From: Escherichia coli
GTDB taxonomy: Bacteria; Pseudomonadota; Gammaproteobacteria; Enterobacterales; Enterobacteriaceae
Assembly: GCF_044324785.1 (NCBI RefSeq)
Contig: NZ_CP172127.1
DNA length: 64,000 bases
Reading direction: 5' to 3' (one strand)
The position numbers and the translations under genes are program-made. This document shows positions 3,372-15,718 of this stretch, one piece after another (positions within the stretch are counted from its first letter, which is position 1; every line of letters begins with the position of its first letter). The notes under the pieces are model-generated. The model ran no database searches, was not told where the DNA came from, and saw only the letters and a program-made list of their open reading frames with translations.

Positions 3372-3850
3372 TGCGAATTGGACACGGTTTTGACGTACAC
3401 GCCTTTGGCGGCGAAGGCCCAATTATCATTGGTGGCGTACGCATTCCTTACGAAAAAGGATTGCTGGCGCATTCTGATGGCGACGTGGCATTACATGCAT
3501 TGACCGATGCCTTACTTGGCGCGGCGGCGCTGGGGGATATCGGCAAGCTTTTCCCGGATACCGATCCGGCATTTAAAGGTGCCGACAGCCGCGAGCTGCT
3601 ACGCGAAGCCTGGCGTCGTATTCAGGCGAAGGGGTATACCCTTGGCAACGTCGATGTCACTATCATCGCTCAGGCACCGAAGATGTTGCCGCACATTCCA
3701 CAAATGCGCGTGTTTATTGCCGAAGATCTCGGCTGCCATATGGATGATGTTAACGTGAAAGCCACTACTACGGAAAAACTTGGATTTACCGGACGTGGGG
3801 AAGGGATTGCCTGTGAAGCGGTGGCGCTACTCATTAAGGCAACAAAATGA
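3371..3850 (+). CDS. ispF: 2-C-methyl-D-erythritol 2,4-cyclodiphosphate synthase
   Basis: 159 aa, [10 protein letters not shown]...HSDGDV motif; start overlaps ispD stop. Confidence 0.93.
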
Positions 3851-6397: not shown

Positions 6398-7537
6398 ATG
6401 AGCGCGGGAAGCCCAAAATTCACCGTTCGCCGCATTGCGGCTTTGTCACTGGTTTCGCTATGGCTGGCAGGCTGTTCTGACACTTCAAATCCACCGGCAC
6501 CGGTCAGCTCCGTTAATGGCAATGCGCCTGCAAATACCAATTCTGGTATGTTGATTACGCCGCCGCCGAAAATGGGGACGACGTCTACAGCGCAGCAACC
6601 GCAAATTCAGCCGGTACAGCAGCCACAAATTCAGGCTACTCAACAACCGCAAATCCAGCCAGTACAGCCAGTAGCTCAGCAGCCGGTACAGATGGAAAAC
6701 GGACGCATCGTCTACAACCGTCAGTATGGGAACATTCCGAAAGGCAGTTATAGCGGCAGTACCTATACAGTGAAAAAAGGCGACACACTTTTCTATATCG
6801 CCTGGATTACTGGCAACGATTTCCGTGACCTTGCTCAGCGCAACAATATTCAGGCACCATACGCGCTGAACGTCGGTCAGACCTTACAGGTGGGTAATGC
6901 TTCCGGTACGCCAATCACTGGCGGAAATGCCATTACCCAGGCCGATGCAGCAGAGCAAGGAGTTGTGATCAAGCCTGCACAAAATTCCACCGTTGCTGTT
7001 GCGTCGCAACCGACAATTACGTATTCTGAGTCTTCGGGTGAACAGAGTGCTAACAAAATGTTGCCGAACAACAAGCCAACTGCGACCACGGTCACAGCGC
7101 CTGTAACGGTACCAACAGCAAGCACAACCGAGCCGACTGTCAGCAGTACATCAACCAGTACGCCTATCTCTACCTGGCGCTGGCCGACTGAGGGTAAAGT
7201 GATCGAAACCTTTGGCGCTTCTGAGGGGGGCAACAAGGGGATTGATATCGCAGGCAGCAAAGGACAGGCAATTATCGCGACCGCAGATGGCCGCGTTGTT
7301 TATGCCGGTAACGCGCTGCGCGGCTACGGTAATCTGATTATCATCAAACATAATGATGATTACCTGAGTGCCTACGCCCATAACGACACAATGCTGGTCC
7401 GGGAACAACAAGAAGTGAAGGCGGGGCAAAAAATAGCAACCATGGGTAGCACCGGAACCAGTTCAACACGCTTGCATTTTGAAATTCGTTACAAGGGGAA
7501 ATCCGTAAACCCGCTGCGTTATTTGCCGCAGCGATAA
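6398..7537 (+). CDS. nlpD: Lipoprotein NlpD (LysM + M23 peptidase-like, amidase activator)
   Basis: 379 aa; lipobox LAGC, Q/P-rich repeat linker, LysM and C-terminal M23 domain; contains rpoS promoters by established knowledge. Confidence 0.93.
6594..6693 (+). repeat. Imperfect in-frame tandem repeats encoding QQPQIQP(V) units inside nlpD
   Basis: Repeated cagc(a/c)gccacaaattcag-like units read directly; protein shows [25 protein letters not shown]. Confidence 0.5.
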
Positions 7538-9266: not shown

Positions 9267-9860
9267 ATGAAACTGATCGTCGGGATGACAGGGGCTACCG
9301 GTGCGCCTCTTGGTGTGGCATTACTGCAAGCGCTGCGGGAGATGCCGAATGTCGAGACTCATCTGGTGATGTCGAAGTGGGCGAAAACCACTATTGAACT
9401 GGAAACGCCTTACAGCGCTCGCGATGTTGCCGCCCTCGCAGACTTCAGCCATAACCCGGCGGATCAGGCGGCGACTATCTCTTCCGGCTCCTTTCGTACC
9501 GACGGCATGATCGTTATTCCATGCAGTATGAAAACGCTCGCCGGTATCCGCGCTGGTTACGCCGATGGTCTCGTAGGGCGCGCGGCGGACGTCGTGCTCA
9601 AAGAAGGCCGCAAACTGGTGCTGGTGCCGCGTGAAATGCCGCTTAGCACCATCCATCTCGAAAATATGCTCGCACTTTCGCGCATGGGCGTGGCGATGGT
9701 GCCGCCGATGCCTGCCTTTTATAACCATCCCGAAACGGTAGATGACATTGTCCACCATGTGGTAGCCCGCGTGCTGGATCAATTTGGCCTCGAACATCCT
9801 CACGCCAGGCGCTGGCAAGGGTTGCCGCAGGCCCGGAATTTTTCTCAGGAGAATGAATAA
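9267..9860 (+). CDS. UbiX/Pad1-family flavin prenyltransferase (decarboxylase B subunit)
   Basis: 197 aa, MKLIVGMTGATGA flavoprotein signature; first gene of three-gene cluster. Confidence 0.85.
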   Translation: MKLIVGMTGATGAPLGVALLQALREMPNVETHLVMSKWAKTTIELETPYSARDVAALADFSHNPADQAATISSGSFRTDGMIVIPCSMKTLAGIRAGYADGLVGRAADVVLKEGRKLVLVPREMPLSTIHLENMLALSRMGVAMVPPMPAFYNHPETVDDIVHHVVARVLDQFGLEHPHARRWQGLPQARNFSQENE

Positions 9861-11287
9861 TGGCATTTGATGATTTACGCAGCTTTTTACAGGCGCTTGA
9901 TGACCACGGCCAGTTACTGAAAATCAGCGAAGAGGTGAACGCGGAACCGGATCTGGCAGCCGCTGCCAATGCCACCGGGCGTATCGGCGATGGTGCACCG
10001 GCTCTGTGGTTTGACAATATTCGCGGCTTTACCGATGCCCGCGTGGCGATGAATACCATCGGTTCCTGGCAGAACCACGCGATTTCCCTCGGCCTGCCGC
10101 CAAACACCCCGGTTAAAAAACAGATTGATGAGTTTATCCGCCGCTGGGATAACTTCCCCATTACCCCGGAGCGCCGCGCCAATCCAGCCTGGGCGCAGAA
10201 CACCGTCGATGGCGACGAGATCAACCTGTTCGATATTCTGCCACTGTTTCGTTTAAACGACGGTGATGGCGGTTTCTATCTCGACAAAGCCTGCGTAGTT
10301 TCCCGCGATCCGCTCGACCCGGATAACTTCGGCAAGCAGAACGTCGGCATCTACCGCATGGAAGTGAAGGGCAAGCGTAAGCTCGGCCTGCAACCGGTGC
10401 CGATGCACGATATCGCCCTGCATCTGCATAAAGCAGAAGAGCGCGGTGAAGATCTGCCGATTGCCATCACCCTGGGTAACGATCCGATCATCACCCTGAT
10501 GGGGGCCACGCCGCTGAAATACGATCAGTCTGAGTACGAAATGGCGGGCGCGCTGCGCGAAAGCCCGTACCCGATCGCCACCGCCCCGCTGACCAGTTTT
10601 GATGTGCCGTGGGGCTCGGAAGTGATCCTCGAAGGGGTTATCGAAAGTCGTAAACGTGAGATTGAAGGGCCGTTCGGTGAGTTTACCGGCCACTACTCCG
10701 GCGGGCGTAACATGACCGTGGTGCGTATCGATAAAGTCTCTTACCGTACCAAACCGATTTTCGAATCGCTCTATCTTGGTATGCCGTGGACCGAAATCGA
10801 CTACCTGATGGGGCCTGCCACCTGCGTGCCGCTGTATCAACAACTGAAAGCCGAGTTCCCGGAAGTGCAGGCGGTAAACGCCATGTACACCCACGGCCTG
10901 TTGGCGATTATCTCCACCAAAAAACGCTACGGTGGCTTTGCCCGCGCGGTGGGCCTGCGTGCGATGACCACGCCGCACGGTCTGGGCTACGTGAAGATGG
11001 TGATTATGGTCGATGAAGACGTTGATCCGTTCAACCTGCCGCAGGTGATGTGGGCGCTCTCTTCGAAAGTGAACCCGGCAGGGGATTTAGTGCAGTTGCC
11101 GAATATGTCCGTGCTGGAACTCGACCCCGGCTCAAGCCCGGCCGGTATCACCGACAAGCTGATTATCGACGCTACCACGCCTGTCGCCCCGGACAACCGT
11201 GGTCACTACAGCCAGCCGGTGGTGGATTTACCGGAAACCAAAGCCTGGGCTGAAAAACTGACCGCTATGCTGGCCGCACGTCAATAA
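9860..11287 (+). CDS. UbiD-family reversible (hydroxy)aryl-acid decarboxylase, catalytic C subunit
   Basis: 475 aa UbiD-like; start overlaps UbiX-like stop (TAATG). Confidence 0.85.
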   Translation: MAFDDLRSFLQALDDHGQLLKISEEVNAEPDLAAAANATGRIGDGAPALWFDNIRGFTDARVAMNTIGSWQNHAISLGLPPNTPVKKQIDEFIRRWDNFPITPERRANPAWAQNTVDGDEINLFDILPLFRLNDGDGGFYLDKACVVSRDPLDPDNFGKQNVGIYRMEVKGKRKLGLQPVPMHDIALHLHKAEERGEDLPIAITLGNDPIITLMGATPLKYDQSEYEMAGALRESPYPIATAPLTSFDVPWGSEVILEGVIESRKREIEGPFGEFTGHYSGGRNMTVVRIDKVSYRTKPIFESLYLGMPWTEIDYLMGPATCVPLYQQLKAEFPEVQAVNAMYTHGLLAIISTKKRYGGFARAVGLRAMTTPHGLGYVKMVIMVDEDVDPFNLPQVMWALSSKVNPAGDLVQLPNMSVLELDPGSSPAGITDKLIIDATTPVAPDNRGHYSQPVVDLPETKAWAEKLTAMLAARQ

Positions 11288-11297
11288 GGAGAACAAG

Positions 11298-11534
11298 ATG
11301 ATTTGTCCACGTTGTGCCGATGAACAGATTGAAGTGATGGCGAAATCGCCGGTAAAAGATGTCTGGACGGTCTACCAGTGCCAGCATTGCCTCTATACCT
11401 GGCGCGATACCGAACCGCTGCGCCGCACCAGCCGCGAACATTATCCCGAAGCGTTCCGCATGACGCAGAAAGATATTGATGACGCGCCGATGGTGCCGAG
11501 CATCCCGCCGCTGCTGGCGGTAGATAAGCGTTAA
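11298..11534 (+). CDS. Small zinc-ribbon D subunit of the decarboxylase
   Basis: 78 aa with CPRC...CQHC motif; 10 bp downstream of the UbiD-like gene. Confidence 0.7.
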   Translation: MICPRCADEQIEVMAKSPVKDVWTVYQCQHCLYTWRDTEPLRRTSREHYPEAFRMTQKDIDDAPMVPSIPPLLAVDKR

Positions 11535-11542
11535 TAAAAAGT

Positions 11543-11570
11543 GCCGGGTAGTGGCTTTGCTTTACCCGGC
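11543..11570. terminator. Hairpin between convergent decarboxylase operon and pphB (likely bidirectional terminator)
   Basis: gccgggta-N12-tacccggc inverted repeat flanked by A/T runs. Confidence 0.5.
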
Positions 11571-11574
11571 CTAA

Positions 11575-12237
11575 TTACTTTATTTTATAAAATGACAGCC
11601 GCCCGCTTTTCGGCGATCCGGTATCAATATAAATCTGGTTAGCGAACGTCTGAATGTTATCAAACATCATATGTCCAAATATAAAATAATCAGCGCCGTT
11701 TATTTGTTGTAACTCGCCATTAAGCGATTTCTGCACACGATCAACAGGCCAGAGTAATTCTCTCTCCGCTATTTCTTTGCCAAAGAGATATTCATTCCCC
11801 GGATAATCTGCATGTGCGATGACATATTTTATTATGTCGTTAGTGATTTCAATAATATGTGGAAGGTGATGAAATCTCAGCAACAGATCTATTGCTTCTT
11901 GTTGTTCCGTCTCATTTAATTCAAAGAACCAGTCGCCGCCGCTGGCAAGCCACATATTGCCATCGCCGGTCGCGAACGCATCCAACGCCATCGCTTCATG
12001 GTTGCCTTTAACCGATGTAAACCAGGGCTGGTTTAGCAGGCGCAGCACGTTAAGACTCTCCGGCCCACGATCAATATTATCGCCGACAGAAATAAGTAAG
12101 TCGGTTTCAGGGCAAAAAGAGAGTTGATGTAAGCGAGATTGTAATAATTTATAGTCACCATGAATATCACCAACGGCCCATATATGGCGATAGTGATGGG
12201 CATCAATTATTTGATAGCGAGTGGTAGACATTTGCAT
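11575..12237 (-). CDS. pphB: Serine/threonine protein phosphatase 2
   Basis: 220 aa metallophosphatase with GDIHGD and GNHE motifs; AT-rich codon usage. Confidence 0.88.
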   Translation of the reverse strand: MQMSTTRYQIIDAHHYRHIWAVGDIHGDYKLLQSRLHQLSFCPETDLLISVGDNIDRGPESLNVLRLLNQPWFTSVKGNHEAMALDAFATGDGNMWLASGGDWFFELNETEQQEAIDLLLRFHHLPHIIEITNDIIKYVIAHADYPGNEYLFGKEIAERELLWPVDRVQKSLNGELQQINGADYFIFGHMMFDNIQTFANQIYIDTGSPKSGRLSFYKIK

Positions 12238-12323
12238 AGACTCAAATTTATATGAATGTATTATTATATCAGACCAGGGTATTGAAGTCTCTGGAGTAAT
12301 AAATTACAAAAGGATGTTTTAAA

Positions 12324-12857
12324 ATGCTGAGATATTTCTATGCTTTCCTGTTAGTTTTTTGTTTTTTCACCTCTAATGTACACGCTGCATCTATAGAAGA
12401 AATAAATCGTTTCGAAAAACTTATAACCGAAGGTGATGTAATTGAGTGTACAGCGCATTTCAGTCAGACGGAGAATAACGAAACATACCAACTTAACCTT
12501 TTGGGAATAATGAAAGTTACTTACTCTGGGGAAAGTGAAAAACGCTACCACTCGACACAATATTATCGTTTAGACGGCTTCAAAATTCCCTTTATCCGTT
12601 ATGAGATGGATATCATCGCTACTCATGAAAAATCGAAGTTAAAAGAAGAGATTGTGCCTGACAGCGTACAGGTATTTTATCCTTCAGCACCAGAGCAAGA
12701 AGCGATATTAGCAGAAGCTGTACGGAAAACCGCACCAATGTCTATTGATAATGACGATATCACATTTACGACATTTCCTGATTACCAGGTGAAAGTGAAA
12801 TCCCCCTCTATGCCAGAAGCGATGACTCAGTATTGCCAGGTGCAAACGAAAAAGTAG
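12324..12857 (+). CDS. Hypothetical secreted protein (predicted signal peptide, unknown function)
   Basis: 177 aa; N-terminal hydrophobic segment ending VHA-AS; AAGGA RBS 9 bp upstream; AT-rich; no domain recognised. Confidence 0.6.
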   Translation: MLRYFYAFLLVFCFFTSNVHAASIEEINRFEKLITEGDVIECTAHFSQTENNETYQLNLLGIMKVTYSGESEKRYHSTQYYRLDGFKIPFIRYEMDIIATHEKSKLKEEIVPDSVQVFYPSAPEQEAILAEAVRKTAPMSIDNDDITFTTFPDYQVKVKSPSMPEAMTQYCQVQTKK

Positions 12858-12866
12858 TGAATAAAC

Positions 12867-12889
12867 CCGACGGCATTGTGCCGTCGGGC
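12867..12889. terminator. Hairpin between convergent hypothetical ORF and mutS
   Basis: cccgacggca-ttg-tgccgtcggg perfect inverted repeat. Confidence 0.5.
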
Positions 12890-12898
12890 ATGTCAGGT

Positions 12899-15460
12899 TT
12901 ACACCAGACTCTTCAAGCGATAAATCCATTCCAGCGCCTGACGCGGGGTGAGTGAATCCGGGTCCAGGTTTTCCAGTGCCTCGACCGCAGGCGACGTTTC
13001 TTCTGGCACTGACAGCAAAGACATTTGCGTACCATCCACTTGCGTAGCGGCGGCGTTCGGCGAAATGCTTTCCAGCTCACGCAGTTTTTGCCGTGCGCGC
13101 TTAATAACCTCTTTTGGCACGCCCGCCAGAGCTGCAACCGCCAGGCCGTAGCTTTTGCTCGCCGCGCCATCCTGCACGCTGTGCATAAAGGCAATGGTGT
13201 CGCCGTGCTCCAGTGCATCGAGATGCACGTTGGCGACGCCTTCCATTTTCTCCGGTAACTGGGTCAGCTCGAAATAGTGGGTGGCAAACAGCGTCAACGC
13301 TTTAATCTTATTCGCCAGATTTTCCGCGCACGCCCACGCCAGCGACAGACCATCGTAAGTGGAGGTTCCGCGCCCAATCTCATCCATCAGCACCAGACTG
13401 TACTCGGTGGCGTTATGCAGAATATTGGCGGTTTCGGTCATCTCCACCATAAAGGTTGAACGCCCGGATGCCAGATCATCCGCTGCCCCTACGCGGGTAA
13501 AGATGCGATCGATAGGTCCAATCTCGACTTTTTGTGCCGGTACATAGCTGCCGATGTAGGCCATCAGCGCAATCAGTGCGGTCTGGCGCATATAGGTACT
13601 TTTACCGCCCATATTCGGACCGGTAATGATCAACATGCGACGCTGCGGCGACAGGTTCAGCGGGTTGGCGATAAATGGCTCGTTTAGTACCTGTTCAACC
13701 ACCGGATGGCGGCCTTCGGTGATGCGAATACCCGGTTTATCAATGAAGGTCGGGCAGGTGTAGTTCAGGGTATAGGCCCGTTCCGCCAGGTTAACCAGCA
13801 CATCAAGTTCCGCCAGCGCGCTCGCGCTCTGTTGCAACGCTTCCAGATGCGGCAACAGCAGGTCGAACAGCTCTTCATAAAGTTGTTTTTCCAGTGCCAG
13901 TGCTTTGCCTTTTGAGGTGAGAACTTTATCTTCGTACTCTTTTAGCTCTGGAATGATGTAGCGCTCGGCGTTTTTCAGCGTCTGGCGACGCATGTAGTTG
14001 ATGGGTGCCAGATGGCTTTGTCCACGGCTGATCTGAATGTAATAACCATGAACCGCGTTAAAGCCGACTTTCAGCGTGTCCAGGCCAGTACGTTCACGCT
14101 CGCGGACTTCCAGACGCTCCAGATAATCGGTCGCGCCATCAGCCAGCGCGCGCCACTCATCCAGCTCTTCGTTATAGCCCGGTGCGATAACACCACCGTC
14201 GCGTACCAGCACTGGCGGTGTGTCGATGATTGCTCGCTCCAGCAGATCGCGCAGCTCGGCAAACTCGCCCATTTTTTCACGCAGCGCCTGTACCGGAGCG
14301 CTATCGACATTTTCTAATAGCGCACGCAGCTCCGGCAGTTGCTGGAAAGCGTGACGCATACGGGCCAGATCGCGTGGGCGAGCAGTTCGTAAAGCCAGAC
14401 GCGCCAGAATACGTTCCAGGTCGCCGACCTGACGCAGTACCGGCTGCAGCTCGGCGGTGAAATCCTGCAATGCGCCAATAGTTTGCTGGCGCTCAAGCAA
14501 CACGCGGGTATCGCGCACTGGCATATGCAGCCAGCGTTTCAGCATACGGCTGCCCATCGGCGTGACGGTGCAGTCGAGCACAGAAGCCAGCGTATTTTCC
14601 GCACCACCCGCCAGATTCTGGGTGATTTCCAGATTACGACGCGTCGCGGCATCCATAATGATGCTGTCCTGCTCACGTTCCATAGTGATAGAACGAATAT
14701 GCGGCAGAGTCGTACGTTGGGTATCTTTCGCATACTGCAACAGACAACCGGCAGCACAAAGTCCGCGCGGCGCGTTCTCGACGCCAAAACCGACCAGATC
14801 GCGGGTCCCAAATTGCAGATTCAACTGCTGGCGCGCGGTGTCGATTTCAAACTCCCACAGCGGGCGACGGCGCAGGCCGCGACGGCCTTCAATTAACGAC
14901 ATTTCAGCAAAATCTTCTGCATATAGCAGTTCCGCCGGATTAGTGCGTTGCAGTTCTGCCGCCATCGTTTCCCGGTCAGCCGGTTCGCTCAGGCGAAAAC
15001 GACCGGAACTGATATCCAGCGTCGCGTAGCCGAAACCTTTACTGTCCTGCCAGATAGCCGCCAGCAGATTGTCCTGGCGCTCTTGTAACAGGGCTTCATC
15101 GCTGATGGTGCCTGGCGTAACGATACGCACAACTTTGCGCTCAACTGGACCTTTGCTGGTCGCCGGATCGCCAATTTGTTCGCAGATGGCAACGGACTCG
15201 CCCTGATTCACCAGTTTGGCGAGGTAGTTTTCCACCGCATGGTAGGGGATCCCCGCCATCGGGATCGGCTCTCCCGCGGAAGCACCGCGTTTGGTCAGTG
15301 AAATATCCAGCAGCTGCGACGCGCGTTTTGCGTCGTCATAAAACAGTTCATAAAAATCACCCATCCGGTAAAACAGCAGGATCTCGGGATGCTGGGCTTT
15401 CAGCTTGAGATACTGCTGCATCATTGGCGTATGGGCATCGAAATTTTCTATTGCACTCAT
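12899..15460 (-). CDS. mutS: DNA mismatch repair protein MutS
   Basis: 853 aa; Walker [10 protein letters not shown]; full-length match to MutS. Confidence 0.97.
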
Positions 15461-15718
15461 GGGGTTATGTCCGGTTCCCTGATATTAAATGGGGTGTGAT
15501 GGTTTTTATTTTCGTTGTAATCACATAAGGCGCACATGATACCGGAGTTAATCATTTCAGGGGAAGAAGCGAACGGCGAGTTCTTGATGGTGATTCCGGG
15601 AAAGATGCTGTTTTGCAGCTTTTGCGTGATGCTTATGAAGCAAGTACGCAAAATTGTATCAGTTGGCGAACCCTTCTTCTTTAGAGTCATAGTGCCCTTT
15701 AAGATTAAGTTGTAATAT

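What the first reader, a model, noticed from the sequence alone, without database searches (positions are those of the whole stretch)
11575..12898. AT-rich block with pphB and an uncharacterised 177-aa secreted protein next to mutS
The segment is markedly more AT-rich than its neighbours. It contains pphB and a 177-aa ORF with a predicted signal peptide (MLRYFYAFLLVFCFFTSNVHA|AS), a good RBS and no recognisable domain, ending in a hairpin shared with convergent mutS. Composition and location in the polymorphic mutS-rpoS interval suggest horizontal acquisition.
Basis: partly seen in the sequence, partly recalled or inferred. Interest (0 to 1): 0.45.

Follow-up and report, generated by a model that had tools for sequence, protein, structure and literature searches.

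The report
Rare fast-evolving exported barrel protein gene
Between the phosphatase gene pphB and the repair gene mutS, this E. coli strain carries a real but rare gene for a small exported barrel-shaped protein that looks like the bile-sensing proteins VtrC and ToxS of Vibrio, has sat at this chromosomal spot in Escherichia and Citrobacter while changing unusually fast, and has been lost from almost all E. coli.

Summary
Window 11575-12898 is the lowest-GC stretch of the 64-kb window (0.40 against a mean of 0.53). It contains pphB and an intact 177-aa ORF (12324-12857, +) with a Sec-type signal peptide, followed by a strong hairpin before the convergent mutS.

The ORF, called X here, is a real gene:
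- A small family of 176-181-aa proteins exists in Escherichia, Citrobacter and a few unnamed taxa.
- Two cysteines are invariant in 16 of 16 members.
- dN/dS is below 1.
- The AlphaFold model is confident (pLDDT 86).

X differs from that family in three ways: a cleavable signal peptide instead of a membrane anchor, no adjacent ToxR-like gene, and no profile similarity to YqeJ/FidL.

X holds the same position next to the mutS 3' end in Escherichia and Citrobacter, yet is only 20-23% identical where mutS is 95-96%. Only 2 of 5426 complete E. coli genomes carry it. Here it sits on a roughly 0.8-kb mosaic segment with a crossover inside pphB. pphB itself is a core gene.

Function is inferred only: binding of a hydrophobic ligand in the periplasm.

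The parts
11575..12231 (-). pphB (PrpB), a PPP-family Ser/Thr phosphatase. It is a core E. coli gene and a chimera in this strain. The ORF itself runs to an ATG at 12237.
   Evidence: NCBIfam NF007425 at 457.9 bits (cut-off 332) and Pfam Metallophos. RefSeq annotation of strain N3. Positions 11575-11866 are 95-100% identical to K-12 and O157. Positions 12159-12231 are only 86-88% identical to them but 93-96% to E1V33, R32 and E. marmotae.
12232..12323 (.). Divergent intergenic region between pphB and the ORF, GC 0.27. It holds a sigma-70-like site (TAGACT, 16 nt, TATTAT) at 12237-12264 on the plus strand and an AAGGA ribosome-binding site at 12311-12315.
   Evidence: The promoter match is a consensus hit only: 3 sites were found against 3.5 expected in shuffles. 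The spacer is 90-97% identical in the other type-A loci.
12324..12857 (+). The 177-aa ORF, called X here. It encodes an exported, lipocalin-like beta-barrel protein with invariant Cys42 and Cys171 that probably form a disulfide.
12324..12386 (+). Predicted Sec/SPase I signal peptide, residues 1-21 (MLRYFYAFLLVFCFFTSNVHA | AS).
   Evidence: A 14-residue uncharged core, with V at -3 and A at -1. The cleavage position is conserved across the family. pLDDT is about 50 for residues 1-20. No SignalP run was possible.
12866..12888 (.). GC-rich hairpin (10-bp perfect stem, 3-nt loop) between the convergent ORF and mutS. It acts chiefly as the mutS terminator.
   Evidence: The tail UUUAUU follows only on the minus strand. 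A hairpin sits at the same place with different stem sequences in K-12, the type-B contig and SY019.
12899..15460 (-). mutS, the convergent neighbour. Its 3' end is the constant anchor of the X locus across genera.
12130..12910 (.). Approximate extent of the mosaic segment (5' end of pphB, spacer, X and hairpin). Its closest relatives are in unclassified or cryptic Escherichia lineages rather than typical E. coli.
   Evidence: Sliding-window identity. dS contrast between cassette and flanks.

Best explanation
The AT-rich block is two things with different histories.

**pphB** is a core E. coli phosphatase gene.

**The 177-aa ORF (X)** is a genuine accessory gene.
- Shown: its product has an N-terminal Sec-type signal peptide and a confidently predicted eight-stranded lipocalin-like barrel. 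The element order is five strands, one helix, three strands. Two invariant cysteines lie in the first and last strands.
- Inferred: the signal peptide is cleaved, the protein is soluble in the periplasm, and the cysteines form a disulfide that staples the barrel shut.
- Inferred from the closest solved folds (ToxS and VtrC of Vibrio, which hold bile salts in the barrel): X binds a small hydrophobic molecule met in the gut. It would act either as a free binding protein or together with an unlinked membrane partner.

**Evolution.** X is a positional orthologue at the 3' flank of mutS in Escherichia and Citrobacter. It evolves 10-30 times faster at non-synonymous sites than its neighbours. It was deleted from most E. 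coli. In this strain it sits on a roughly 0.8-kb segment exchanged by homologous recombination, with a crossover inside pphB.
For: **A real gene.**
- Sixteen full-length homologues of 176-181 aa keep the ORF, the signal peptide and both cysteines at 18-24% identity between subfamilies.
- dN/dS is 0.36-0.45 against E. marmotae and 0.2-0.3 in more distant pairs.

**Fold.**
- The AlphaFold model has pLDDT 85.9 and pTM 0.78.
- Foldseek independently ranks VtrC, V. parahaemolyticus ToxS and V. cholerae ToxS first.
- The element order A-E strands, F helix, G-I strands matches the VtrC crystal structure as described in PMC4933562.
- The disulfide between first and last strands matches the FidL/YqeJ subgroup described in PMC9214523.

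**Export.**
- The hydrophobic core is 10-14 residues in most members, followed by a conserved small-x-small site. YqeJ and FidL have 18-21-residue anchors.

**Synteny.**
- pphB|X|mutS in E. marmotae, Escherichia sp. E1V33, strain R32_14_1F, type-B contigs and an unnamed enterobacterium.
- vdcD|X|mutS in C. rodentium and C. freundii.

**Rate.**
- X is 20-23% identical between Escherichia and Citrobacter. The neighbours are vdcC 97-98%, vdcD 92-94% and mutS 95-96%.

**Rarity and mosaicism.**
- X occurs in 2 of 5426 complete E. coli genomes.
- Cassette dS is 0.04-0.05 against flank dS 0.27-0.54.
- The breakpoint lies inside pphB.
Against: - No expression, localisation or ligand data exist, so every functional step is inference.
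- Profile-profile comparison with YqeJ/FidL shows no similarity, probability 0.4-7%.
- No ToxR-like partner gene lies next to X in any of the contexts examined.
- dN/dS of 0.6-1.3 between very close alleles could mean weak constraint rather than adaptive diversification. These estimates rest on few substitutions.
- The direction of exchange, import against retention with overwritten flanks, is not resolved.
Confidence: 0.6

Rival explanations
1. X is a true but cryptic member of the VtrC/ToxS co-component superfamily. It would be a sensor barrel that has lost its membrane anchor and works in trans with a ToxR-like membrane regulator encoded elsewhere, for example YqeI or a strain-specific one, to control transcription in response to bile or lipid.
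For: - ToxS and VtrC are the top hits by two fold-search methods.
- The element order matches VtrC.
- The disulfide between first and last strands matches FidL/YqeJ.
- Extreme divergence is a hallmark of that superfamily (PMC9214523).
- In C. freundii, a ToxR-like/YqeJ_C-like pair lies 3.3 kb away on the other side of mutS.
Against: - The defining adjacent or overlapping ToxR-like gene is absent from every X locus.
- A signal peptide replaces the membrane anchor.
- hhalign finds no similarity to YqeJ/FidL.
- The C. freundii pair is absent from a second C. freundii locus that still carries X.
Confidence: 0.2
2. X is a periplasmic protective or 'arms-race' protein. Candidates are an orphan immunity protein against a periplasm-acting toxin, or an inhibitor of a host or competitor enzyme. 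Its fast divergence would then reflect antagonistic co-evolution rather than ligand sensing.
For: - X is exported, small and stabilised by a disulfide.
- Alleles at one locus are highly divergent (44-46% identity between types A and B within Escherichia-like flanks).
- dN is 10-30 times that of the neighbours.
- The alternative cassette at the same site, a Sel1-repeat protein, is also exported.
- According to PMC4933562, the calycin superfamily includes periplasmic metalloprotease inhibitors.
Against: - No toxin or effector gene is adjacent in any context.
- PADLOC and PHROGs give no match.
- Average dN/dS is below 1.
Confidence: 0.12
3. X is a decaying or functionless remnant. It would be tolerated in a recombination-prone region and be on its way to loss, as has already happened in most E. 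coli.
For: - X is absent from more than 99.9% of complete E. coli genomes.
- Truncated 115-135-aa products are on record in its cluster.
- dN/dS is 0.6-0.8 among close type-A alleles and 1.28 in one close pair.
Against: - The full-length ORF, the signal peptide and both cysteines are kept across Escherichia and Citrobacter at about 20% identity.
- dN/dS is 0.2-0.45 over longer distances.
- X is near-universal in E. marmotae records, on hundreds of contigs.
- The fold prediction is confident from only 8 sequences.
Confidence: 0.08

Closest known systems
VtrC and ToxS of Vibrio (periplasmic lipocalin-like bile-salt-binding co-components; PDB 5kev, 8dml, 8u2f, 8alo)
   Same: - An eight-stranded meander barrel with the helix after the fifth strand.
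- Similar size (137-161 aa against a 156-aa mature X).
- Found in enteric bacteria and fast-evolving.
   Different: - VtrC and ToxS are anchored by an uncleaved N-terminal membrane helix. Each forms an obligate or strong heterodimer with an adjacent ToxR-like transcription factor.
- X has a cleavable-type signal peptide and no such neighbour.
- Sequence identity is 7-12%, with no profile similarity.
- The VtrC barrel is open between its first and last strands, whereas X probably closes that seam with a disulfide.
FidL/YqeJ subgroup of the VtrC superfamily in E. coli, Salmonella and Shigella (Kinch et al. 2022, PMC9214523)
   Same: - A conserved cysteine in the first barrel strand and another in the last. 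X has C42 and C171. YqeJ has C37 and C158.
- The same five strands, helix, three strands order in both models.
- Found in the same group of bacteria.
   Different: - hhalign probability is 0.4-7%.
- The precomputed Pfam YqeJ_C family (PF27292) hits YqeJ relatives but none of the X family.
- YqeJ and FidL have 18-21-residue anchors and sit directly downstream of YqeI or GrvA.
- X has an extra helix at residues 24-33 and a longer helix at 123-134.
Known polymorphism of the mutS-rpoS region of E. coli and Salmonella
   Same: - The chromosomal region is the same. Mosaic structure, alternative gene blocks (ygbI-N against slyA-vdcBCD) and recombination of mutS are reported for it (PMC4209514).
- PMC7232297 notes that pphB lies next to mutS.
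   Different: - The papers read here deal with the large blocks between pphB and rpoS or on the fhlA side.
- Neither paper was found to mention this gene; I searched them by keyword and did not read them in full.
- The pphB|mutS junction as a second, small variable site is shown here. Its states are empty, X type A, X type B or a Sel1-repeat gene.

Membership tests
VtrC/ToxS-like lipocalin co-component superfamily | Periplasmic eight-stranded meander beta-barrel, lipocalin-like, with a short helix after the fifth strand | tested here: met
   [not shown]
VtrC/ToxS-like lipocalin co-component superfamily | Encoded next to, and often overlapping, a ToxR-like gene (winged-helix domain, one membrane helix, periplasmic domain) | tested here: not met
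   The neighbours of X are pphB or vdcD on one side and mutS on the other, with hok or a 136-aa ORF in between in some loci. This holds in Escherichia, Citrobacter and an unnamed enterobacterium. The distant members P0006, P0009 and P0124 also lack such a neighbour.
VtrC/ToxS-like lipocalin co-component superfamily | Uncleaved N-terminal transmembrane anchor | tested here: not met
   The uncharged run is 10-14 residues in most members, followed by a conserved small-x-small|A-S/T site. YqeJ and FidL have runs of 18-21 residues. The modelled helix spans residues 4-14 in X and 2-30 in YqeJ. This is a prediction only. SignalP and experiments were not available.
FidL/YqeJ subgroup | Conserved disulfide between the first and last barrel strands | tested here: met
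   C42 and C171 are invariant in 16 of 16 members. They lie in the first (39-50) and last (167-174) strands. Residues 39+174 and 42+171 give the same sum, which fits antiparallel pairing.
FidL/YqeJ subgroup | Sequence or profile similarity to FidL, YqeJ, STM0345 or SF3507 | tested here: not met
   hhalign of the X family against YqeJ, and against YqeJ plus FidL plus a C. freundii YqeJ-like protein, gives probabilities of 0.4% and 7%. X homologues carry no precomputed PF27292 hit.
VtrC/ToxS-like lipocalin co-component superfamily | Binds bile salts or another hydrophobic ligand in the barrel and signals through its partner | not testable with these tools
   This needs binding assays and genetics.
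PphB (PrpB) PPP-family protein Ser/Thr phosphatase | Full-length match to the equivalog model above its curated cut-off | tested here: met
   NF007425 at 457.9 bits against a cut-off of 332. Pfam Metallophos E 4e-16.
Mobile genomic island | Integrase or transposase, flanking direct repeats, or a tRNA or other att site | tested here: not met
   No repeats bracket the cassette. There are no mobility genes between vdcD and mutS. The boundaries coincide with the pphB start and the mutS stop, and the flanks are homologous in all site states.

The most novel reading that the evidence does not exclude
X would be the first soluble, partner-less branch of the VtrC/ToxS sensor superfamily. It would be a secreted periplasmic barrel kept at the mutS 3' flank since before Escherichia and Citrobacter split. 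It would be under diversifying pressure on its ligand or partner surface, and would either capture gut lipids or bile acids on its own or plug in trans into ToxR-like regulators.
Probability: 0.15. Interest if true: 0.65.

Novelty: new variant of a known kind. Interest (0 to 1): 0.4.

Why it matters
If the fold-based reading is right, VtrC/ToxS-like barrels are not confined to two-gene 'co-component' cassettes. They would also exist as free exported proteins, which widens the search for bile or lipid sensing in enteric bacteria.

The locus is also a clean natural example of a gene that keeps its chromosomal address, signal peptide, fold and disulfide while the rest of its sequence diverges to about 20% identity between genera whose neighbouring genes are 95% identical. 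That makes it useful for studying how fast periplasmic proteins can evolve.

It also adds a small, previously overlooked variable site, the pphB|mutS junction, to the well-known mutS-rpoS polymorphism.

Practically, the finding is modest. It concerns one uncharacterised gene that is rare in E. coli and has no experimental data.

Tried and rejected
- **Domain and sequence libraries.** Pfam, NCBIfam, PADLOC, PHROGs and PDB sequences gave nothing for X.
- **Rfam.** No match in 11000-13500.
- **Profile comparison with YqeJ/FidL.** hhalign found no signal.
- **AlphaFold database search.** The afdb50 Foldseek library was not installed.
- **Species-genome scan.** The first scan, with the 8-sequence alignment, failed for lack of conserved stretches. 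The repeat with 5 sequences found only Escherichia sp. E1V33. The patterns were too specific to reach the Citrobacter alleles, which were found later by profile search.
- **Remnants of X in the K-12 spacer.** A global alignment of the 105-bp K-12 spacer to the cassette was uninformative. Only the terminator end and a short promoter-proximal stretch look homologous by eye.
- **Spurious ORF: rejected.** ORF length, cysteines and signal peptide are conserved, and dN/dS is below 1.
- **Lipoprotein: rejected.** There is no conserved lipobox cysteine.
- **Functional link to pphB or vdcBCD: rejected.** Citrobacter has X without pphB, and E. marmotae has X without vdcBCD.
- **Mobile element: rejected.**

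Full report
**1. What is there**

The window is the mutS-rpoS region of an E. coli chromosome. It is 99.8-99.9% identical to strain N3, NZ_CP031609. It is not that strain, because nlpD is intact here and frameshifted in N3.

The gene order is:
- rpoS, then a MarR-type regulator
- vdcB (9267-9860), vdcC (9860-11287) and vdcD (11298-11534)
- pphB (11575-12231, minus strand)
- a 177-aa ORF (12324-12857, plus strand)
- mutS (12899-15460, minus strand), then ygbA

The block 11575-12898 has GC 0.403. The mean for all 1324-bp windows is 0.532 (sd 0.031), so this is the lowest-GC stretch of the 64 kb. By part, pphB is 0.42, the 92-bp spacer 0.27 and the ORF 0.39, against 0.56-0.57 for the flanking genes.

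pphB matches the NCBIfam PphB equivalog at 457.9 bits, cut-off 332. The ORF has an AAGGA ribosome-binding site 9 nt upstream of its ATG.

A perfect 10-bp GC-rich hairpin lies at 12866-12888, with a free energy of -21.9 kcal/mol on the plus strand and -25.2 on the minus strand. A U-rich tail follows it only on the mutS strand. A hairpin sits in the same place in K-12, in the type-B contig and in SY019, each with a different stem sequence. It is therefore primarily the mutS terminator.

**2. The ORF is a real gene belonging to a small, unannotated family**

Pfam, NCBIfam, PADLOC, PHROGs and PDB sequences give no match. Searches of 1.8 and 5.8 billion proteins found only a handful of clusters, all 176-181 aa long:
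- **Type A.** This is the window's type. The exact sequence occurs on 228 contigs, named E. coli, unclassified Escherichia, and once E. fergusonii.
- **E. marmotae type.** It is 78% identical and occurs on hundreds of contigs.
- **Type B.** It is 44-46% identical and occurs in records named E. coli and Enterobacteriaceae FGI 57.
- **A 40%-identical type** in an unnamed enterobacterium.
- **Citrobacter types** in the C. freundii complex, C. gillenii and C. rodentium, 20-24% identical.
- **Two distant clusters** in unrelated genomic contexts.

In an alignment of 16 members, six positions are invariant: the initiator Met, Ala22 at the predicted cleavage site, Cys42, Val117, Tyr154 and Cys171.

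dN/dS is 0.36-0.45 against E. marmotae and 0.2-0.3 for more distant pairs. For close alleles it is 0.6-1.3, based on few changes. The neighbours give 0.01-0.12. So the gene is constrained, but far less than its neighbours.

**3. The protein**

The N-terminus has one or two basic residues, an uncharged core of 10-14 residues in most members, and a small-x-small site (V-H-A|A-S here). That site is kept at the same alignment column in the whole family. This is a Sec/SPase I signal peptide by the -3/-1 rule. There is no conserved lipobox.

The AlphaFold model built from only 8 sequences is confident, with pLDDT 85.9 and pTM 0.78. It shows a disordered signal peptide, a helix at 24-33, five long strands, a helix at 123-134 and three more strands ending at 167-174.

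Fold searches gave these results:
- Foldseek independently puts VtrC, V. parahaemolyticus ToxS and V. cholerae ToxS first, with E about 3e-3 and TM-scores of 0.41-0.57.

The VtrC crystal structure is described as strands A-E, helix F and strands G-I (PMC4933562). The X and YqeJ models have the same order.

Kinch et al. (PMC9214523) report that the enterobacterial members FidL, YqeJ, STM0345 and SF3507 share a disulfide between the first and last barrel strands. The two invariant cysteines of X lie in exactly those strands. The strand boundaries (39+174 = 42+171) are consistent with direct cross-strand pairing. That last point is inference, because I could not read coordinates.

**4. Where it does not fit that family**

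- No ToxR-like gene is adjacent to X in any locus.
- X has a signal peptide where VtrC, ToxS, YqeJ and FidL have an 18-21-residue anchor.
- Profile-profile comparison with YqeJ, FidL and a Citrobacter YqeJ-like protein gives a probability of 0.4-7%.

X therefore works, on present evidence, like a VtrC/ToxS-type barrel, but it cannot be filed as a member. It is best described as an orphan, probably soluble variant.

The outer-membrane-barrel reading is unlikely. No member ends with an aromatic residue, and the soluble sensors rank higher.

**5. Evolutionary anatomy of the site**

X always lies next to the 3' end of mutS, convergent with it. The arrangements found are:
- vdcD-pphB|X|mutS in the window, N3, R32_14_1F, E1V33, the type-B contigs and an unnamed enterobacterium
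- ygbI-pphB|X|mutS in E. marmotae
- vdcD|X|mutS, without pphB, in C. rodentium and C. freundii

Neither pphB nor vdcBCD is thus a constant partner. The constant anchor is mutS.

Between Escherichia and Citrobacter, X is 20-23% identical. The neighbours are far more conserved: vdcC 97-98%, vdcD 92-94% and mutS 95-96%. Between C. rodentium and C. freundii, X is 53% identical against 96% for mutS. In the type-B contig the flanks are 85-95% identical to the window, but the cassette is about 55% identical. The change occurs exactly at the pphB start and the mutS stop.

Among 5426 complete E. coli genomes the junction has these states:
- X type A in 2 genomes
- X type B in none
- an unrelated 287-aa Sel1-repeat gene, also with a signal peptide, in 182 genomes
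- none of these cassettes in the remaining genomes; K-12 and O157, the two read directly, have a 105-bp spacer

**6. History in this strain**

Against E1V33 and R32_14_1F, the dS of X is 0.04-0.05. For pphB it is 0.49-0.54 and for mutS 0.27-0.47. Within pphB, the 3' 290 bp are 95-100% identical to K-12 and O157. The 5'-most 73 bp are 86-88% identical to them but 93-96% to E1V33, R32 and E. marmotae. Identity to E1V33 and R32 drops again just inside mutS.

So a segment of about 0.8 kb (roughly 12130-12910) has a different ancestry from its surroundings. It was exchanged by homologous recombination. No repeats or mobility genes bracket it.

This fits the published picture of frequent recombination around mutS (PMC4209514). 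However, pphB as a gene is core: the pphB/mutS stretch is matched in 5415 of 5426 genomes. X itself is an old resident of the site, not foreign cargo. The most economical history is ancestral presence, loss in most E. coli, and local retention or re-import. The direction of exchange is not resolved.

**7. Mechanism, with its status**

- **Shown:** an intact conserved ORF, a signal-peptide pattern, a confident barrel prediction, invariant cysteines in the seam strands, closest folds ToxS and VtrC, synteny, a high evolutionary rate, rarity and mosaicism.
- **Inferred:** export and cleavage, a disulfide-closed barrel, and binding of a hydrophobic small molecule in the periplasm. The last rests on analogy with bile-salt binding in VtrC and ToxS and with calycins in general. 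X would act alone or with an unlinked partner.
- **Not supported by anything here:** a specific ligand, a regulatory output, or a link to PphB.

Rivals are a trans-acting co-component, an arms-race immunity or inhibitor protein, and a decaying remnant. They are scored in the report sections.

**8. Verdict**

This is a genuine, uncharacterised and taxonomically narrow gene. It has a recognisable fold, an unusual combination of features and a striking evolutionary rate. It sits in a region already known to be polymorphic. It is of moderate interest: worth a note and a cheap experiment, not a major surprise.

Noticed in passing
L002 3858-4721 (E. coli SY019), the same site as window 12232-12898: A different cassette occupies the pphB|mutS junction in 182 of 5426 complete E. 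coli genomes. It is a 287-aa Sel1-repeat protein on the minus strand with its own signal peptide (MRITIASIILIISATAIGA|ED). Both alternative cargos at this site are exported proteins.
   Followed up: partly
window 11575-12231: pphB is a chimera. Its 3' 290 bp are 95-100% identical to K-12 and O157. Its 5' end is closer to cryptic Escherichia lineages, so a recombination breakpoint lies inside the gene.
   Followed up: yes
window 6398-7537: nlpD is an intact 379-aa ORF in the window. It is annotated as frameshifted in the otherwise 99.8% identical strain N3, so the window comes from a close relative and not from N3 itself.
   Followed up: partly
L019 10893-12190; L020 10846-14379; L024 12478-15462: The 5' flank of mutS is an insertion hotspot in relatives. 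One C. freundii locus has a ToxR-like (Trans_reg_C) plus YqeJ_C-like pair there. A second C. freundii locus has a phage-integrase island. An unnamed enterobacterium has an integrase plus the Kiwa defence genes KwaA and KwaB.
   Followed up: no
L019 7846-7998: A hok/gef-family toxin gene lies between X and mutS in C. freundii.
   Followed up: no
window 12866-12888; L003 about 3715-3745; L007 about 1635-1660: The mutS terminator hairpin is kept at the same position in different lineages, but with different stem sequences (CCCGACGGCA, CCCGATAG and CCCGGGAG). This amounts to structure conservation through compensatory change or replacement.
   Followed up: partly
window 15536-15715: A small ORF lies between mutS and ygbA. 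It is annotated as a 59-aa hypothetical protein in N3 and as 44 aa in other E. coli. It was not examined.
   Followed up: no
L014 84-2592; L021 404-6826: The two most distant X homologues (P0009 and P0124) lie downstream of a conserved cluster: SDR, amine oxidase, DUF1365, cyclopropane-fatty-acid-synthase-like, DUF2878 and DUF3833. This hints at a lipid-related neighbourhood in those taxa. The taxon was not identified.
   Followed up: no
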